A stretch of DNA of 64,000 nucleotides from Candidatus Caldatribacterium sp. SIUC1 (lineage in GTDB: Bacteria > Atribacterota > Atribacteria > Atribacterales > Caldatribacteriaceae), in the NCBI RefSeq assembly GCF_051549785.1, contig NZ_CP189974.1, positions 34,093 to 98,092 on the forward strand, given 5' to 3'. The position numbers were made by a program, and so were the translations under genes. Below the pieces are notes generated by a model, which ran no database searches, was not told the DNA's origin, and saw only the letters and a list, made by a program, of their open reading frames with translations. Positions 959 through 13,354 of this stretch are shown here, one piece after another. Numbering within the stretch: the first letter of the stretch is position 1; the number at the start of each line of letters is the position of its first letter.

Positions 959-2629
959 ATGCGCATGAAAGGCGCCCAGGTTCTTGTGGAACTTTTGAAG
1001 AAAGAGGGCGTGGAGTTCATCTTCGGATATCCCGGTGGTGCAGTCCTTGACATTTACGATGCCCTCTTTGACACTCCCGAGATCCATCACATCCTCGTGC
1101 GACACGAACAGGGGGCAGCTCATGCTGCCGATGGATACGCCCGGACCACAGGGAAGGTGGGGGTGTGCATCGCCACTTCCGGGCCAGGAGCCACGAATCT
1201 CGTGACAGGTCTTGCTACAGCCTACATGGATTCCATCCCCATTGTGGCCCTCACCGGGCAGGTTTTCACTCACCTCATCGGCAAAGACTCCTTCCAGGAG
1301 GCCGACACCACCGGCATCACCATGCCCATCACCAAACACAACTTCCTGGTGACAAACGCCGAAGACCTGCCCTACGTGATCCGGGAGGCATTCTACCTTG
1401 CCTCTTCCGGCCGCCCGGGACCGGTGCTTGTGGACCTCCCCCGTGATGTGCAGCAGAAAATGATTGAGCTCGTCTATCCCGAGAAAATCAAAATCCCAGG
1501 GTATCGGCCAACCTACAAGGGCCACGCCAAGCAAATCAAACTCGCCGCTGAGGCCATCGGGGAGGCAAAACGTCCCCTCCTCTACGTCGGTGGAGGTGTT
1601 ATCGCCTCAGGGGCCTCTGAGGTCCTTTTTGAACTTGCCACCAAAGCCGATATCCCCGTGGTGCATACGCTTATGGGGAAGGGGGCTTTCCCCGAAAGCC
1701 ATCCCCTGTCTTTGGGAATGCTCGGCATGCACGGAACGTACTGGGCCAATAAAGCCGTTATGCGCTGCGATCTCCTCATCGCCGTCGGGGCTCGTTTTGA
1801 CGACCGGGTGACGGGGAAACTCGACACTTTTGCCCCCCACGCCAGAATCATCCACATCGACATCGACCCGGCAGAAATCGGCAAAAACGTGAAACCCCAC
1901 ATCCCCATCGTGGGCGATGCCCGGATGGTCCTCGCCGAAATCGTGAAGCGCCTTGAACCCATGACCCACCCTGAATGGCGCGAGGAGATTGCGCAGTGGA
2001 AAAGGGAGTACACTCCAAAGTATCGGGAGAGCAAGAAACTCCTCCCCCACCAGGTTATTGAACGAATCTACGAGAAAACGAAGCACCTCGACACGGTTGT
2101 CGTGACCGACGTGGGACAACACCAGATGTGGGCTGCCCAGAAATACCCCCGGGAGAAGCCGCGGACCTGGGCGAGTTCCGGGGGGCTTGGAACTATGGGG
2201 TATGGACTGCCAGCTTCCATCGGAGCCCAGGTGGGCAATCCCGGCAAGACCGTCATCCTCATTAGCGGTGACGGGAGCATTTTCATGAAGATTCAGGAAC
2301 TCGTGACCGCCGTGAATTACTGCCTCCCCATCAAAATCTTCGTGATGAACAACGAGTTCCTCGGGATGGTCCGCCAGTGGCAGGGGTGTCTCTATCGGGG
2401 TCGGTATTCCTGTACACGCCTCGTGAACCCGGATATCGCCCGGGTTGCCCAGGCCTTCGGAGCAGTGGGTATTTCGGTCACCACAAAAGACGAGCTCGAC
2501 CGGGCCATCGATGAGGCCCTGAAGACAGAAGACCGACCAGTCCTTGTGGACTGCCACATCGAGGAGGAAGAAAACGTCCTCCCCTTTGTGCCACCTGGAA
2601 AATCTCTGGAAGAGATGATTCTCGAGTGA
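959..2629 (+). CDS. ilvB: acetolactate synthase large subunit (TPP enzyme)
   Basis: ATG at 959 preceded by RBS AAGGAGGTG. The N-terminus [30 protein letters not shown] is a typical ALS N-terminus and the protein carries a TPP-binding GDGS motif. Product is 556 aa. Confidence 0.92.
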
Positions 2630-2642
2630 AGGAGGTGACGGT

Positions 2643-3128
2643 GTGGAACACATCATTGCGGTCCTTGTGGAGAATAAACCAAGGGTTCTGGCTCGGGTAG
2701 CGTCGCTTTTTGCCCGGCGGGGATACAACATCGAGAGCCTCGCAGTCGGGCCAACCCAGGATCCCAGCATTTCCCGGATCACCCTCGTTGTCACCGGAAA
2801 TGAGCACGTCCTCGAGCAGATTACCAAGCAACTCTACAAGCTCATCGAGGTCATCAAGGTCAGCGATTTTGCCAACACCCCGGTGGTCGACCGGGAACTG
2901 GCGCTCATCAAGGTCCATGCTCCCTCGAACCTGCGGGGAGAAATCGCCCAGACTGCGGAAATCTTCCGGGCTCGCATTGTCGATGTTGACGAAGAGAGCC
3001 TCATCGTGGAGGTCACCGGGACCCCGGATAAAATCGATGCCTTAGAGCAACTCCTGCGAAAGTACGGTATCATTGAGATGACCCGTACAGGGCGGATAGC
3101 TCTGGCACGGGGCAGTCAATCCCTATAA
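2643..3128 (+). CDS. ilvN: acetolactate synthase small (regulatory, ACT) subunit
   Basis: GTG start with RBS GGAGGTGA. The N-terminus HIIAVLVENKPRVLARVASLFARRGYNIESL is an IlvN hallmark. Sits directly after ilvB. Confidence 0.9.
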   Translation: MEHIIAVLVENKPRVLARVASLFARRGYNIESLAVGPTQDPSISRITLVVTGNEHVLEQITKQLYKLIEVIKVSDFANTPVVDRELALIKVHAPSNLRGEIAQTAEIFRARIVDVDEESLIVEVTGTPDKIDALEQLLRKYGIIEMTRTGRIALARGSQSL

Positions 3129-8827: not shown

Positions 8828-9145
8828 CTAAATGCGGTGCATCACCTGGAAGATGCTCGCATGCTGCAGGTACACCTTGACCCCCACCTCTTCGCCCCGC
8901 CGGACCAGTCTCTCCCGAAGCTCTGAAAGCGAGACCGAACAGCGGGAGATATCACCCACAAGAATCATGGTGAAGTACTCTCCGAGAATCTTCTGGGTGA
9001 TATCCTCGATGTTGACGCTGTGCTCGGCAAGACAGGACGTGATGGCAGCGATAATCCCGATACGGTCCTTCCCCACAACAGTAATGACCACCCTGTGCTC
9101 GGTGGACGGCTCTTCCTCAAAGGCCCAGAGATTCACTTCGGTCAC
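8828..9145 (-). CDS. ACT domain protein (UPF0237 family)
   Basis: 105 aa. The segment VVITVVGKDRIGIIAAITSCLAEHSVNIEDITQ is an ACT fold. The UPF0237/UPF0210 gene pair is a conserved arrangement. Confidence 0.75.
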   Translation of the reverse strand: MTEVNLWAFEEEPSTEHRVVITVVGKDRIGIIAAITSCLAEHSVNIEDITQKILGEYFTMILVGDISRCSVSLSELRERLVRRGEEVGVKVYLQHASIFQVMHRI

Positions 9146-9824
9146 TGTGTTCTCCTCCTTTGAGCCGTTCGCTGAAGATATGGGCTAAACGCACGGGCTC
9201 AGGAAGACGAAACCCCCTTGCCGTCTTCAGGGCCCATTCCCGGGCTTTCTCTAAGTCTATCCGGTTTCCCGGAGAGACGAATACGGGCTGGGTGCAGTCT
9301 TTTGTTCGCAGGACAACGCCGACACGCTTCCCCCGGTATTCGACAAAAGAGAAGGAACCTCGCTTCTCCCCAGGTTCCTGAAAATGTCCCACGAGGGGCT
9401 TTTTGGCCACTCCAATAGAGACAAGACCAAAGAGGACCCCCAGGTGGCTGGCAATCCCCACTCCCCGGGGATGGGCGATACCCTGGCCGTCGAAGAAGAA
9501 AAGGTGCGGCACAACGGAAAGACGCCGGAAAGCCTCTTCAATCGCCGGACCTTCCCGGAAGGAGAGAAAACCCGGAACATAGGGGAAAGAGGGCTTATGC
9601 ACCCCCGAGGCCACTTCGACCACCTCAAGAGAAGGCCACCGCAGGACCACAACAACCGCCACCGCTTGCCCAAGAGCGTTGTAGGCAACGTCAACCCCTG
9701 CAAGAAGCGTAACAGCCTCGTCTTTCAAGGGAAATTCGAGGGAAACCTTTTGCCGGATATCCTCTTGGATGCGCAGGGCCTCCTCAAGCGTCACCTCGAA
9801 AGGATGAGGGTATTGCCTCTCCAT
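9117..9824 (-). CDS. nfi: endonuclease V (deoxyinosine 3' endonuclease)
   Basis: 235 aa. Contains ..LLAGVDVAY..VVVL.. and ..PYVPGFLSFREGP.. motifs of the Nfi family. Confidence 0.85.
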   Translation of the reverse strand: MERQYPHPFEVTLEEALRIQEDIRQKVSLEFPLKDEAVTLLAGVDVAYNALGQAVAVVVVLRWPSLEVVEVASGVHKPSFPYVPGFLSFREGPAIEEAFRRLSVVPHLFFFDGQGIAHPRGVGIASHLGVLFGLVSIGVAKKPLVGHFQEPGEKRGSFSFVEYRGKRVGVVLRTKDCTQPVFVSPGNRIDLEKAREWALKTARGFRLPEPVRLAHIFSERLKGGEHSDRSESLGL

Positions 9825-9839
9825 GGAGGGACAGGGAGG

Positions 9840-10073
9840 TTACAGGATTTCGAGCTCTACAGTTTTGGTGAGGATGTCGACGTAGTTGAAGGCCATGCGC
9901 TGAGCGGTACCGTCGACATCCACCCTGAGGATGAAGAAGAAGGGGTAAATCCCCTCAATGACGCCTTTGCGAACAACGGTCTTTTTGCGCCCTTTGTTGA
10001 CCTCTACAATGGCTTCTCGGCCGACGAGAGAGCCAATCCACTCTTTGATTTCCTGGAGATTCTGGACGGTCAA
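9840..10073 (-). CDS. veg: Veg-like protein (DUF1021)
   Basis: 77 aa. N-terminus MTVQNLQEIKEWIGSLVGREAIVEVNKGRKK..GVIEGIYP.F.L matches the Firmicutes Veg family. Confidence 0.75.
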   Translation of the reverse strand: MTVQNLQEIKEWIGSLVGREAIVEVNKGRKKTVVRKGVIEGIYPFFFILRVDVDGTAQRMAFNYVDILTKTVELEIL

Positions 10074-10109
10074 AAAGCATCATTCCCGCCGCATTTTTTG
10101 GTATTATAT

Positions 10110-10610
10110 CCTATTTCTCCAGAAAAAGCAAACGAAATCACGAAAAAGCAGCAGAGCACCTTTCTCGGTCTTCCGAACCCTCTTGTCCTCCATAAAGGAG
10201 AACACCTCAGCACATTCTGGGAGGTCCGCACCCTTCGGGATTCCTACGTACAAAAAGCCACGTAGACTTCAAAAGATTGTCAGAACACGTCTTGAGCTTT
10301 CGACCTTCCCCGCTACCCGCGCAAGATGAGAAGAACCCGGAACACCTCCTGCTGCTGGCAGAGAAAAAAGACTCAATCCCGAGATTCGGAAAGGAGAGCG
10401 AGACGAACCCGGACACCGCAAGACTGCACACATCGCCTAATAAATCTCCGCATCTACCGAGGAACAGAGCGCCTCCCCGGAGGAAATCGCCCTTGTCAGT
10501 GAGTCGCTTGCTGCATAAACCGAAAAACCGCAGAGCACCGTACACCAGTTCAGCGCGTGAGCTCCCCAACCACTGCTTTCCGGGAGCCCGGAAAGCAGTG
10601 GTTCTTTTTA
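10110..10610 (+). ncRNA. candidate unannotated plus-strand transcript (sRNA?) ending in an intrinsic terminator; identity unknown
   Basis: A 640 nt non-coding gap lies between divergent veg and serC. An extended -10-like TGGTATTAT sits near 10095-10103. A perfect 14-bp palindrome hairpin plus T-tract sits at 10570-10610. serC has its own promoter downstream of the hairpin. No credible ORF: the only long frame is low-complexity and K/R/P-rich. Confidence 0.3.
10570..10610 (+). terminator. Rho-independent terminator (plus strand)
   Basis: CCACTGCTTTCCGGG-AGC-CCGGAAAGCAGTGG followed by TTCTTTTTA. The reverse strand has no U-tract. Confidence 0.65.
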
Positions 10611-10654
10611 GGCTTCTGCCTTAGCTTCACTAAGCGCAGCTGAAAAGGCGGACA

Positions 10655-10712
10655 CCCCCTCCCGGGAAATGGTAGAATATCCGGGAAAAGCCAGAACGAG
10701 GGAGGAAGGGAA
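10655..10712 (+). promoter_or_regulatory. serC promoter/RBS region
   Basis: Extended -10 TGGTAGAAT at about 10662-10670. RBS GGGAGGAAGGGAA precedes the ATG at 10713. Confidence 0.4.
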
Positions 10713-11798
10713 ATGGAAGAGCGGGTGCATACTTTTAACCCTGGTCCAGCGGCCTTGCCCCTGCCAGTACTTGAGCGAATCCGTGACGAAATGCTCAACT
10801 TCCGTGGCACAGGGATGTCCATCCTTGAGGTTAGCCATCGCTCAAGGACCTTTGAAGAGGTCCTCGACGATGCTGCAGCAAGGCTCAAAAGGCTCCTGAA
10901 ACTCGACAACCGTTTCCATGTGGTTTTCCTCCAGGGCGGAGCAAGCCTCCAGTTCGCCATGGTTCCGATGAACCTGGCGCTTGAGGGGAAACCCGTAGGG
11001 TACGTGGACACCGGATACTGGGCCTCCAAGGCTCTCAAGGAAGCCCAGATTCTGGGGAAAGACGTGCAGGTGGTGGCGTCCTCCAAAGCGCAAAACTACA
11101 CGCATATCCCCAAGAACTTCACCGTCGATGACAACCTCGCCTATCTCCACCTCACCTCAAACAACACCATTGAGGGCACCCAGTGGCACCACTTTCCCGG
11201 GGTGGGGAATGTCCCCCTGGTGAGCGACATGTCTTCGGATATCTTAAGCCGGGTCTTTGACCCCTCGCCCTTTGGGCTCATCTATGCCGGGGCGCAGAAA
11301 AACCTGGGTCCTGCAGGGGTCACCGTGGTCATTATCCGGGAGGACATGCTGGAACGCACCCCCAAAAATCTCCCCACCATGCTCCGGTACTCCACGTTCG
11401 TTGAATCGAACTCCCTCTACAACACCCCGCCCTGCTTTGCCATCTATGTGGTTGACCTCGTCCTTGAATGGCTTGAGGAAACGGTTGGAGGTCTGGAAAC
11501 AATGGAGGCCATCAACCGAAAGAAGGCGAAAATCCTCTACGACTACCTCGACAGCCAGAACTTCTACACCTGCCCTGTGGCACCCGAAGACCGGTCCATG
11601 ATGAACGTGGTCTTTCGTCTCCCCAGCCCAGAATTAGAGGACAAATTCGTGAAAGAAGCAGAAAAAGCACGCCTTGTGGGGCTTAAAGGACACCGCTCTG
11701 TAGGAGGATGCCGGGCCTCCCTCTACAATGCCGTCACCGTGGAGGCGGTGCAGGCACTCGTGGACTTCATGCAGGAGTTTGCCCGAAAAAACGCCTGA
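10713..11798 (+). CDS. serC: phosphoserine aminotransferase
   Basis: 361 aa. N-terminus MEERVHTFNPGPAALPLPVLERIRDEML..GTGMSILEVSHRS is the SerC class V aminotransferase signature. Confidence 0.9.
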   Translation: MEERVHTFNPGPAALPLPVLERIRDEMLNFRGTGMSILEVSHRSRTFEEVLDDAAARLKRLLKLDNRFHVVFLQGGASLQFAMVPMNLALEGKPVGYVDTGYWASKALKEAQILGKDVQVVASSKAQNYTHIPKNFTVDDNLAYLHLTSNNTIEGTQWHHFPGVGNVPLVSDMSSDILSRVFDPSPFGLIYAGAQKNLGPAGVTVVIIREDMLERTPKNLPTMLRYSTFVESNSLYNTPPCFAIYVVDLVLEWLEETVGGLETMEAINRKKAKILYDYLDSQNFYTCPVAPEDRSMMNVVFRLPSPELEDKFVKEAEKARLVGLKGHRSVGGCRASLYNAVTVEAVQALVDFMQEFARKNA

Positions 11799-11812
11799 GG
11801 GACGAGCGTCCC

Positions 11813-13354
11813 TCAGGCAAGGCCAAGCTTTGCGAACTCCCGAAAAAGCGGTGCGTTCACCTCGTAGAGCCGCCTGAAGAGGCGGAAAAGCTCCTCGTAC
11901 AAAGCGTGGGCATTTGCGTCAGGGGTGACCTGGCCTTCGGTGGGAAAGAACTCCTCGGGGAATTCCTCGAAGGACCGGACATACCCCAGGGCCTTCAGGG
12001 CGATGAGGAATGCCCCCTTGGCGGAGGAAGAGGGATAACTGCTCACCGCCACCGGGACACCCAGAACGTCACAGAGCACCCTCCTCCCGTTCTCTGAAAG
12101 GGCAAACCCTCCGCCAATCACCACCTTCCTGGGCTCCCCCATGACCTCCCGGAGCATGTCAAAAACGGCGCGAATCGAAAAAGCCACGCTCTCATAGGCC
12201 GCCTGGAGAAGAGCCTCCGGGGTATGGAAGAAAGAGAGCCCGAAGAGAATCCCCCGGGCATAGGGGTCCCAGTAAGGGCTCCGTTCTCCGGTCAAAAAGG
12301 GCAAAAAGAGCGGACGTCGCCGGGAAAGGTCGAGAGCGACCTCGCCCTCTTTCAAGAGGTCCCGCATCCACGAGAAGACGATGCCTCCGTTGTTGATGGC
12401 CCCTCCCCCAACCCAGATATCGGAGGCAAGGTAGTAACACCAGGCCCGTTTTCCAGGGTCGATGACTGGCCGGAGGGCACACATGCGAACGGCCCCTGAA
12501 GACCCGACGCTCACGACCATTTCGCCTTCTCGAAAACACCCCTCTCCGAGATTGGCAAAAGGACCGTCCCCACCACCCCACACAACAGGCATCCCCAGGG
12601 GTAAACCGGTGGAAGCGGCGAAGTCCCGGCTCACAAGTGGCGCCGCGAAATCCGGCTCCACAAGGGGGGGAAGGAGTTCCGGGGAAATCGCAAGCAGGTC
12701 GCACATCTTCCTGCTCCACGCCTTCCTCTGCACCTCAAGAAGTCCCGTCCCTGAAGCCGTGGAGTAATCGCAGCAAAGCTCCCCCGTGAGCTGAAAGAGC
12801 ACCCAGTCCTTGATGCTCAGGATTTTCGAAACCCTCTTCCAGAGGTCCCCGTGGTGCTTCCTGAGCCAGAGAATCCGAGGAGGATGGTAGATAGTGTGGA
12901 GCGGTGCAGCCGTCAGTTCATAGAGGCGTTCCTTTTCATAGGACTCCCGGAATCCCTCAACTTCCTGGAAAGAGCGGGTGTCCATCCAGTTCCAGAGAGG
13001 GGCAAGGGGAGTGAAATTGCCATCCACAGGAAGGAGGCTGTGGAGCATGGTGTCAAAGCTCAGCGCTTCGAAAGAGCTTCCGGGAAAGGACGAAACCGCC
13101 TCCTTCACCGCCTCGGTAAGGGCACCGAAAATTTCCCCCGGGTCCTGCTCTGCGTATCCTGGGGCAGGAGAAGCAGTGGGGTATGCCCTTTTTGTCGAAA
13201 AGAGGATGTTCCCACTTTGGTCAAACACGCAGACTTTCAGGGACGATGTGCCAATATCCGCACAGAGGAAAAGCCTTTGTGCCACCGGTATCCCCCCGAC
13301 GCTTTTTCCTATTATAGCCCTGTCACCCATTTCCTTTAAAGAATAGGAAGACAT
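11813..13354 (-). CDS. FGGY-family carbohydrate kinase (xylulokinase/glycerol kinase-like)
   Basis: ..LFLCADIGTSSLKVCVFDQSGNIL.. N-terminal FGGY motif, with the C-terminal FGGY domain (GGG..N). The start is uncertain (ATG 13354 or 13330). The ORF-track start at 13393 is GTG. Confidence 0.8.
   Translation of the reverse strand: MSSYSLKEMGDRAIIGKSVGGIPVAQRLFLCADIGTSSLKVCVFDQSGNILFSTKRAYPTASPAPGYAEQDPGEIFGALTEAVKEAVSSFPGSSFEALSFDTMLHSLLPVDGNFTPLAPLWNWMDTRSFQEVEGFRESYEKERLYELTAAPLHTIYHPPRILWLRKHHGDLWKRVSKILSIKDWVLFQLTGELCCDYSTASGTGLLEVQRKAWSRKMCDLLAISPELLPPLVEPDFAAPLVSRDFAASTGLPLGMPVVWGGGDGPFANLGEGCFREGEMVVSVGSSGAVRMCALRPVIDPGKRAWCYYLASDIWVGGGAINNGGIVFSWMRDLLKEGEVALDLSRRRPLFLPFLTGERSPYWDPYARGILFGLSFFHTPEALLQAAYESVAFSIRAVFDMLREVMGEPRKVVIGGGFALSENGRRVLCDVLGVPVAVSSYPSSSAKGAFLIALKALGYVRSFEEFPEEFFPTEGQVTPDANAHALYEELFRLFRRLYEVNAPLFREFAKLGLA

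What the first reader, a model, noticed from the sequence alone, without database searches (positions are those of the whole stretch)
10074..10712. Candidate unannotated sRNA between veg and serC, ending in a perfect terminator
The 640 nt divergent intergenic region contains a strong plus-strand intrinsic terminator. It is a perfect 14-bp palindrome CCACTGCTTTCCGGG/CCCGGAAAGCAGTGG plus a T-tract at 10570-10610. It lies about 100 nt upstream of serC, and serC has its own extended -10 promoter (TGGTAGAAT) after the hairpin. A plus-strand transcript therefore appears to terminate here without encoding a plausible protein. The only long frame is low-complexity and K/R/P/S-rich. An extended -10-like TGGTATTAT near 10095 could be its promoter. 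Alternatively the hairpin is an attenuator for serC fed by an upstream promoter.
Basis: seen in the sequence. Interest (0 to 1): 0.5.

Follow-up and report, generated by a model that had tools for sequence, protein, structure and literature searches.

The report
Orphan terminator of a dead chemoreceptor gene
The "candidate small RNA" between veg and serC is mostly fast-decaying leftover DNA that ends in the last codons and the still-intact transcription terminator of a broken chemotaxis-receptor gene, so it is an ordinary gene relic rather than a conserved RNA gene.

Summary
Window 10568-10603 is a perfect 16-bp hairpin (loop 4, -29.6 kcal/mol) followed by CTTTTT on the + strand. serC has its own conserved promoter after it, and no Rfam family matches.

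The sRNA reading is not supported. The window comes from a Caldatribacterium-like Atribacterota genome. The 115 nt before the hairpin (10444-10560) are the decayed last ~38 codons of a methyl-accepting chemotaxis protein (MCP) gene. The hairpin starts 7 nt after that gene's ancestral stop codon. It is homologous to the hairpin that follows an open MCP tail in metagenome contig L099.

About 441 nt (10211-10651), hairpin included, are missing from two of four sibling lineages that are ~94-95% identical in the flanking genes. Between the two lineages that keep it, the body differs at 24-31% of sites with frameshifting indels. That is at or above the 14-21% seen at fourfold-degenerate sites.

Only the hairpin looks constrained. 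All four stem substitutions form two compensatory pairs (P about 0.0004-0.0009 by chance). It may therefore still stop stray + strand transcription before serC. TGGTATTAT overlaps veg's own TATAAT on the opposite strand.

Ordinary; low interest.

The parts
9840..10073 (-). veg (Veg family protein, 77 aa from TTG at 10073)
   Evidence: ORF. Homologues carry PF06257 and are 97% identical (P0001).
10074..10146 (-). veg promoter and 5' leader. On the minus strand, -10 TATAAT is at 10108->10103 and -35 TTGCTT at 10131->10126 (17-nt spacer).
   Evidence: Sequence. The block is 85-99% identical in all relatives, including those with another gene upstream of veg. Only 2 substitutions in 105 nt against L081.
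10147..10443 (.). Unassigned, fast-evolving spacer DNA of unknown origin. It ends in TAA TAA at 10438-10443.
   Evidence: 26-31% substitutions plus 66 gap columns against L081. No protein, DNA or RNA-family similarity. No conserved ORF: indels of 17, 5, 1, 5, 5 and 27 nt.
10211..10651 (.). Segment absent from sibling lineages L087 (NCBI GCA_000353875.1) and L089. Boundaries are uncertain by a few nt.
   Evidence: Alignment of veg-serC spacers. The spacer is 639-653 nt in the window and the L081 group, against ~211 nt in L087 and L089.
10444..10560 (+). Relic of the last ~38 codons of a methyl-accepting chemotaxis protein gene: ISASTEEQSASPEEIALVSESLAA*TEKPQSTVHQFSA*. Internal stop TAA at 10516-10518; ancestral stop TGA at 10558-10560.
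   Evidence: Translation. It is 55-58% identical to the C-termini of intact 650-780-aa MCPs. It shows DNA homology to the better-kept L081 relic and to the open MCP tail of L099. The L081 version hits annotated MCP C-termini in plasmids at E 3e-5. The window peptide alone reaches only E 0.1, at the same MCP site.
10568..10603 (+). 16-bp perfect hairpin with loop GAGC: the orphaned intrinsic terminator of the dead MCP gene.
   Evidence: Homologous hairpins exist in L081 (-31.4 kcal/mol) and after the L099 MCP tail (-25 kcal/mol). There are two compensatory pair changes against L081 and no broken pair.
10604..10609 (+). T-tract (CTTTTT) of the terminator.
   Evidence: L081 has TTTTTT.
10649..10678 (+). 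serC promoter: CGGACA, 18-nt spacer, TAGAAT, with TG at 10670-10671.
   Evidence: Scan. Region 10649-10712 has 3 substitutions in 64 nt against L081 and is kept in L087 and L089.
10713..11798 (+). serC (phosphoserine aminotransferase, 361 aa).
   Evidence: ORF. Relatives. Pfam Aminotran_5 on the orthologues.

Best explanation
The veg-serC spacer is a rearrangement scar, not a conserved RNA gene.

Shown:
- Window 10444-10560 is the decayed 3' end of a methyl-accepting chemotaxis protein (MCP) gene.
- The hairpin plus T-tract at 10568-10609 is that gene's own Rho-independent terminator, starting 7 nt after the ancestral stop codon.
- The premature stop is at the same codon in the window (TAA) and in the L081 lineage (TGA), so the gene was already dead in their common ancestor.
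- The ~300 nt upstream (10147-10443) has no recognisable origin and drifts at the neutral rate.
- About 441 nt, hairpin included, are absent from two sibling lineages, so the segment is dispensable.
- Only the hairpin resists decay.

Inferred mechanism: low-level + strand transcription still terminates at the hairpin. It may arise from the pseudo-symmetric -10 of the strong veg promoter (TATAAT on one strand, TATTAT on the other) or from chance promoters in the relic. Termination here would keep that transcription from running across the serC promoter. On this view the element's value, if any, lies in terminating, not in the sequence of the RNA made.
For: MCP origin:
- The relic peptide of the sibling lineage L081 matches 79 plasmid records by tblastn. 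Almost every match that overlaps an annotated gene is annotated as a methyl-accepting chemotaxis protein (47-52% identity, best E 3e-5 in 7.3 Gb).
- That match ends 3 codons, stop codon included, before the annotated MCP CDS end.
- A metagenome scan found 66 relatives; the full-length ones inspected are 650-780 aa and end ...AEENAASSEEVSASTEEQSASLEEI.SA.ESLAKLAEELQ..V..F.V*.
- They are 69% identical to the L081 relic and 55-58% identical to window 10444-10551.
- L099 carries an open MCP tail with DNA-level homology that continues through the stop codon into a homologous hairpin.
- Related MCP genes are followed directly by hairpins.

Dispensable and neutral:
- The segment is absent in L087 and L089, although the flanking genes are 92-96% identical among all four lineages.
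- Divergence from L081 is 0.31, 0.26 and 0.24 in the three body segments, against 0.14-0.21 at fourfold-degenerate sites. The veg promoter is at 0.02 and the serC promoter at 0.05.
- RNAalifold gives a covariation term of +0.69 and many broken pairs outside the hairpin.
- Whole-region folding z-scores are only about -1.8 on either strand.
- No Rfam hit.

Hairpin constrained:
- All 4 stem substitutions form 2 compensatory pairs.
- In simulation, the chance that all 16 pairs stay Watson-Crick is 0.0002-0.007 at local neutral rates, and 0.0004-0.0009 given exactly 4 stem changes.

Context:
- Chemotaxis genes are reported in all Caldatribacteriaceae genomes examined (PMC11227167).
- Pseudo-symmetric prokaryotic promoters are reported to drive divergent transcription (abstracts of PMC12825309 and PMC10268837).
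Against: - There is no transcript data, so neither termination nor any + strand transcription is shown.
- Pfam MCPsignal did not hit the relic. A PDB sequence search did not recover MCPs. The word-indexed protein search returned only the relic's own 69-aa ORF. The window's peptide alone reaches only E 0.1. MCP ancestry for the window therefore rests on DNA homology to L081 and L099.
- The L099 MCP is cut by the contig end, so only its last 43 codons are seen.
- The hairpin comparison rests on two lineages plus L099.
- Compensatory changes in a perfect palindrome can also arise from template-switch mutation without selection (my own knowledge, not tested here).
- The insulator role is not essential, because L087 and L089 lack the hairpin.
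Confidence: 0.8

Rival explanations
1. It is a real trans-acting sRNA of ~0.5 kb. It would be transcribed from the extended -10 TGGTATTAT (10099-10107) and end at the hairpin.
For: An extended -10-like motif and a strong terminator lie in the right order on the + strand. The hairpin is kept by compensatory changes. No conserved ORF lies between them.
Against: - The body evolves at or above the neutral rate with many indels.
- There is no conserved structure beyond the hairpin.
- No Rfam family matches.
- The segment is absent in two of four sibling lineages.
- The 3' third is recognisably a dead MCP gene.
- Conservation of the 'promoter' is explained by the overlapping veg promoter, which is conserved even where the neighbouring gene differs.
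Confidence: 0.07
2. The hairpin is an attenuator or leader terminator that regulates serC, fed by an upstream promoter.
For: The hairpin lies 110 nt upstream of serC on the same strand.
Against: - A conserved promoter (10649-10678) lies between the hairpin and serC, leaving a leader of only ~28 nt.
- L087 and L089 lack the hairpin but keep that promoter.
- No riboswitch, T-box or leader family was detected.
- No conserved alternative (antiterminator) pairing was found.
Confidence: 0.03
3. The hairpin is inert. It looks preserved only because palindromes self-correct by template-switch mutation, or because too little time has passed. Nothing is transcribed or terminated.
For: The segment is dispensable in sibling lineages. 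The scan found no sigma-70-like + strand promoter upstream of the hairpin, in the window or in L081. Only two or three independent lineages are available.
Against: Flanking relic DNA has taken 17-31% substitutions, yet the 16-bp stem stayed perfect in both lineages. The T-tract is also kept. A third, more distant version (L099) still folds with further pair changes.
Confidence: 0.25
4. The segment encodes a small protein, such as the 69-aa ORF called in JGI data for L081 (P0026).
For: A gene was called in L081 at 2537-2746 and is on record as a hypothetical protein. The ATG and the first ~14 codons are similar in the window (MRRTRNTSCCWQR against MRRAWDTSCHWQR).
Against: After ~14 codons a 5-nt indel changes the frame. 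The window reads through different sequence to a different stop, and TAA TAA interrupts the L081 frame. There is no Pfam hit, and only self-hits among 5.8 billion proteins.
Confidence: 0.02

Closest known systems
Rho-independent (intrinsic) terminators left behind by degraded genes (orphan terminators in pseudogene remnants)
   Same: A G+C-rich perfect stem-loop and U-tract starting 7 nt after the ancestral stop codon of a gene that no longer exists. The relic has premature stops and is truncated at its 5' side.
   Different: The stem is kept perfect by two compensatory changes while the relic around it drifts. This suggests continued use or a palindrome-specific mutation process.
Methyl-accepting chemotaxis proteins of Atribacterota and Firmicutes (C-terminal helix of the signalling domain)
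   Same: The relic translates to ...ASTEEQSAS.EEIA.VSESLA..E..Q.TVH.FSA*. It aligns to the extreme C-terminus of full-length MCPs at 55-69% identity.
   Different: Only the last ~38 codons (window) to ~54 codons (L081) survive. Sensor, transmembrane, HAMP and hairpin-tip regions are absent, there are in-frame stops, and Pfam MCPsignal does not hit.
sRNAs derived from mRNA 3' ends, which share the parent gene's terminator (my own knowledge)
   Same: The RNA, if made, would end at the terminator of a protein-coding gene and contain that gene's 3' coding sequence.
   Different: The parent gene is dead. No conserved seed or processing site was found, the body evolves neutrally, and the locus is missing in sibling lineages.
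Bidirectional (pseudo-symmetric) bacterial promoters (PMC12825309, PMC10268837)
   Same: veg's perfect TATAAT on one strand overlaps TATTAT preceded by TGG on the other. This is the kind of symmetry reported to drive divergent transcription.
   Different: Divergent initiation at this promoter has not been tested. No gene is served on the + side.

Membership tests
Rho-independent terminator | Stable G+C-rich stem-loop | tested here: met
   16 bp, 9 G-C pairs, -29.6 kcal/mol, z = -5.6.
Rho-independent terminator | U-tract directly 3' of the stem on the transcribed strand | tested here: met
   CTTTTT at 10604-10609 on the + strand; none on the minus strand. L081 has TTTTTT.
Rho-independent terminator | Position just downstream of a gene's stop codon | tested here: met
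   The stem starts 7 nt after the ancestral MCP stop at 10558-10560. That stop aligns with the TAG of the L099 MCP tail.
Rho-independent terminator | Actual termination of RNA polymerase | not testable with these tools
   Needs term-seq, Northern blot or an in vitro assay.
Methyl-accepting chemotaxis protein gene | Homology to the conserved C-terminal signalling-domain helix | tested here: met
   The window peptide alone is marginal (E 0.1).
Methyl-accepting chemotaxis protein gene | Intact open reading frame with sensor, transmembrane, HAMP and hairpin-tip regions | tested here: not met
   In-frame stops at 10438-10443 and 10516-10518. No MCP similarity upstream of 10444. No Pfam MCPsignal hit. 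It is a relic, not a gene.
Bacterial trans-acting sRNA | Own promoter | tested here: inconclusive
   TGGTATTAT is present, but it overlaps veg's -10 on the other strand and has no -35. The scan reports no + strand promoter upstream of the hairpin.
Bacterial trans-acting sRNA | Sequence or structure conserved among relatives beyond the terminator | tested here: not met
   24-31% divergence with indels, against 14-21% at neutral sites. Absent in L087 and L089. Covariation term +0.69.
Bacterial trans-acting sRNA | Match to a described RNA family | tested here: not met
   Rfam 15: nothing at gathering score in 64 kb, and no match at E<=10 within the 10074-10712 spacer; the three weak hits in 9000-12000 (E 1.3-9.9) lie outside it.
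Bacterial trans-acting sRNA | Detected transcript with defined ends | not testable with these tools
   No expression data available.
Transcription attenuator or riboswitch leader of serC | Terminator lies between the gene's promoter and its start codon, with a conserved alternative structure | tested here: not met
   The serC promoter (10649-10678) is downstream of the hairpin. It is conserved where the hairpin is absent. No alternative pairing is conserved.

The most novel reading that the evidence does not exclude
A dead chemoreceptor gene's 3' end is being reused. The orphaned terminator would be kept by selection because a non-coding + strand RNA, started divergently from the strong veg promoter, must be stopped before serC. 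Alternatively, this RNA is a young sRNA being born from a pseudogene tail.
Probability: 0.12. Interest if true: 0.4.

Novelty: already known. Interest (0 to 1): 0.13.

Why it matters
It matters mainly as a caution. A strong terminator with no gene in front of it, in a long intergenic region, looks like an sRNA but can be the tail of a degraded gene. Comparing sibling genomes resolves this quickly. A minor point of interest is that the orphan terminator's stem is maintained by compensatory changes while everything around it decays. That makes it a small natural test of whether terminators are kept as insulators next to strong promoters. The veg-upstream junction is also a rearrangement hot spot in Caldatribacterium-like genomes.

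Tried and rejected
- Rfam, at both gathering and E<=10 thresholds, found nothing in the spacer.
- ARAGORN found no tRNA or tmRNA in the window.
- Whole-region folding gave z about -1.8 on both strands, mostly from the hairpin itself.
- A repeat or MITE was ruled out: the spacer is unique in the window and only the hairpin self-matches.
- Exact-protein look-ups for the window's Veg, SerC and endonuclease V found nothing on record.
- SerC-based genome loci were too distant or not syntenic. L001 has gdhA upstream and L002 has a glyoxalase gene.
- Pfam on all spacer frames gave no hit.
- A PDB sequence search with the relic peptide returned only designed coiled coils.
- The word-indexed protein search returned only the relic's own ORF.
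- I looked for MCP homology upstream of 10444 with 13 MCP sequences and found none.
- I tested whether the unassigned 300 nt derive from neighbouring genes of relatives (histidine kinase, response regulator, OEP, a 49-aa ORF) or from any fetched locus. There was no significant hit.
- The small-protein reading was rejected because of frameshifts between lineages.

Full report
**1. What is in the sequence**

veg (9840-10073, minus strand) and serC (10713-11798, plus strand) are divergent and separated by 639 nt.
- AACCACTGCTTTCCGG-GAGC-CCGGAAAGCAGTGGTT at 10568-10603, with 16 perfect pairs and a 4-nt loop, followed by CTTTTT.
- It folds at -29.6 kcal/mol with z = -5.6.
- It is the strongest terminator-like site in the first 20 kb of the window.
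- The T-tract is on the + strand only.

serC has CGGACA-18-TAGAAT with an upstream TG at 10649-10678. No Rfam family matches anywhere in the window at gathering scores, and none matches within the spacer at E<=10. There is no tRNA or tmRNA. The spacer is not a repeat.

On the other strand the same bases read TATAAT (10108->10103), with TTGCTT 17 nt upstream. That is the veg promoter. This block (10074-10146) is 85-99% identical in every relative, including those with a different gene next to veg.

**2. Relatives**

Veg homologues identify the organism as Caldatribacteriaceae, phylum Atribacterota. Contigs encoding a 97%-identical Veg fall into four lineages that are 92-96% identical to each other in the flanking genes:
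- the window;
- the L081 group (L081, L082, L084, L085, L086, L090), which keeps a 653-nt spacer;
- L087 (NCBI GCA_000353875.1) and L089, which also have veg next to serC but with a spacer of only ~211 nt.

The alignment shows that window ~10211-10651, hairpin included, has no counterpart in L087 or L089. The veg promoter block and the serC promoter are retained there. L083 and L088 are 99.4% identical to L089 in the veg block, yet carry a histidine-kinase gene instead of serC. More distant relatives (L091-L094) carry an outer-membrane efflux gene, with a divergent tRNA-Gln confirmed in the two scanned, L091 and L092. The junction upstream of veg is therefore unstable in this clade.

**3. What the segment is**

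In L081 the stretch before the hairpin translates to RKASYIASISKEHAASSQVFASTEEQSASLEEIASVSESLAK*AEEPQRTVHRFSA*. The window reads ISASTEEQSASPEEIALVSESLAA*TEKPQSTVHQFSA* at 10444-10560.

Evidence that this is the tail of a methyl-accepting chemotaxis protein (MCP) gene:
- tblastn of the L081 peptide against 7.3 Gb of plasmids gave 79 records. Almost every match that overlaps an annotated gene is annotated as a methyl-accepting chemotaxis protein (47-52% identity over ~90% of the query, best E 3e-5).
- That match ends three codons, stop codon included, before the MCP CDS end.
- A metagenome scan returned 66 relatives. The full-length ones inspected are 650-780 aa and end ...AEENAASSEEVSASTEEQSASLEEI.SA.ESLAKLAEELQ..V..F.V*.
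- They are 69% identical to the L081 relic and 55-58% identical to window 10444-10551.
- The window peptide alone is marginal (E 0.1), but it hits the same MCP site.

One contig, L099, carries an open MCP tail whose DNA aligns with the window and L081. The alignment continues through the stop codon (TAG against TGA) into a homologous hairpin, cgACCACCGCTTTCAGGGTA...AAGTGGTGGTcg (-25 kcal/mol). Other MCP genes of this group are also followed directly by hairpins. The hairpin is therefore the MCP gene's own terminator.

MCP similarity stops at about 10444. The 300 nt upstream match nothing I could test. The premature stop sits at the same codon in the window (TAA) and in L081 (TGA), so the relic predates their split. 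Chemotaxis genes are reported in all Caldatribacteriaceae genomes examined (PMC11227167). A decayed paralogue is unremarkable in that setting.

**4. Is anything under selection?**

Divergence between the window and L081, by segment:

| Segment | Substitutions per site |
|---|---|
| veg promoter block | 0.02 |
| serC promoter and leader | 0.05 |
| 10147-10300 | 0.31 |
| 10301-10443 | 0.26 |
| MCP tail | 0.24 |
| hairpin | 0.17 |
| hairpin to serC -35 | 0.18 |
| fourfold-degenerate sites in serC, the DUF711 gene and nfi | 0.14-0.21 |

Indels of 17, 5, 1, 5, 5, 27, 1 and 4 nt rule out a conserved ORF. RNAalifold finds no covariation support outside the hairpin: the covariation term is +0.69 and many pairs are broken.

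The hairpin is the exception. Its four stem substitutions are two compensatory pairs (U-A to C-G, and C-G to U-A), and no pair is broken. In simulation, a 16-bp stem stays fully Watson-Crick with probability 0.0002-0.007 at these rates, and 0.0004-0.0009 given exactly four stem changes. Either the structure is selected, or the palindrome is maintained by template-switch mutation. The second possibility is from my own knowledge and was not tested.

**5. Mechanism**

- Shown: the origin of the 3' third and of the hairpin; dispensability of the segment; neutral drift of the body; independence of the serC promoter.
- Inferred: some + strand transcription reaches the hairpin and is stopped there, shielding the serC promoter. 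A plausible source is divergent initiation at veg's pseudo-symmetric -10 (abstracts of PMC12825309 and PMC10268837).
- Not shown: any transcript.

**6. Comparison and verdict**

The feature meets the sequence definition of an intrinsic terminator. It fails the tests for an sRNA gene (no conservation, no family, patchy presence) and for a serC attenuator (the promoter is downstream of the hairpin). It is a gene relic with an orphan terminator, which is a known and ordinary kind of thing. The only mildly interesting aspect is the maintained stem. Interest is low.

Noticed in passing
L091 2579-2652 (-), L092 2777-2850 (-): In more distant relatives a tRNA-Gln(CUG) gene lies divergent from veg, overlapping the 3' end of the called outer-membrane efflux gene. 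It is absent from the window, L081, L083 and L087 (L089 was not scanned for tRNAs).
   Followed up: partly
L083/L088 vs L089, upstream of veg (locus ~2600-3000): Contigs 99.4% identical in the veg-nfi-ACT-DUF711 block have different genes upstream of veg: a histidine kinase in one case and serC in the other. This is either a very recent rearrangement hot spot or assembly chimeras.
   Followed up: partly
window 10072-10076: The window has five A where all close relatives have four. This puts the relatives' ATG start of veg (79-aa product) out of frame and leaves TTG at 10073 as the start. It is either a real change or a homopolymer error.
   Followed up: no
window 11792-11819 (-): A 12-bp hairpin plus TTTTTT lies between the convergent serC and FGGY-kinase genes. 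The weak Rfam 'ar14' hit (E 9.9) is just this terminator.
   Followed up: no
window 1-64000: The + strand of the whole window is C>G (19859 against 17067) and A>T (14267 against 12807). The spacer shows the same skew more strongly (A 186, T 118).
   Followed up: no
window 10328-10346 / 10400-10417 and 10141-10160 / 10521-10539: Short imperfect direct repeats occur inside the spacer (GAnGAACCCGGAaCACC; CGAAAAAnCnGCAGAGCACC). A CGGACAC-like motif recurs at the right edge of the indel (10649-10655). The E-values are at chance level, but these could be the microhomology used in the deletion seen in L087 and L089.
   Followed up: partly
L002 3367-3995: A more distant Atribacteria MAG also has a ~630-nt AT-rich gap upstream of serC. 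It is unrelated in sequence to the window's spacer, and a long hairpin follows the preceding glyoxalase-like gene.
   Followed up: no
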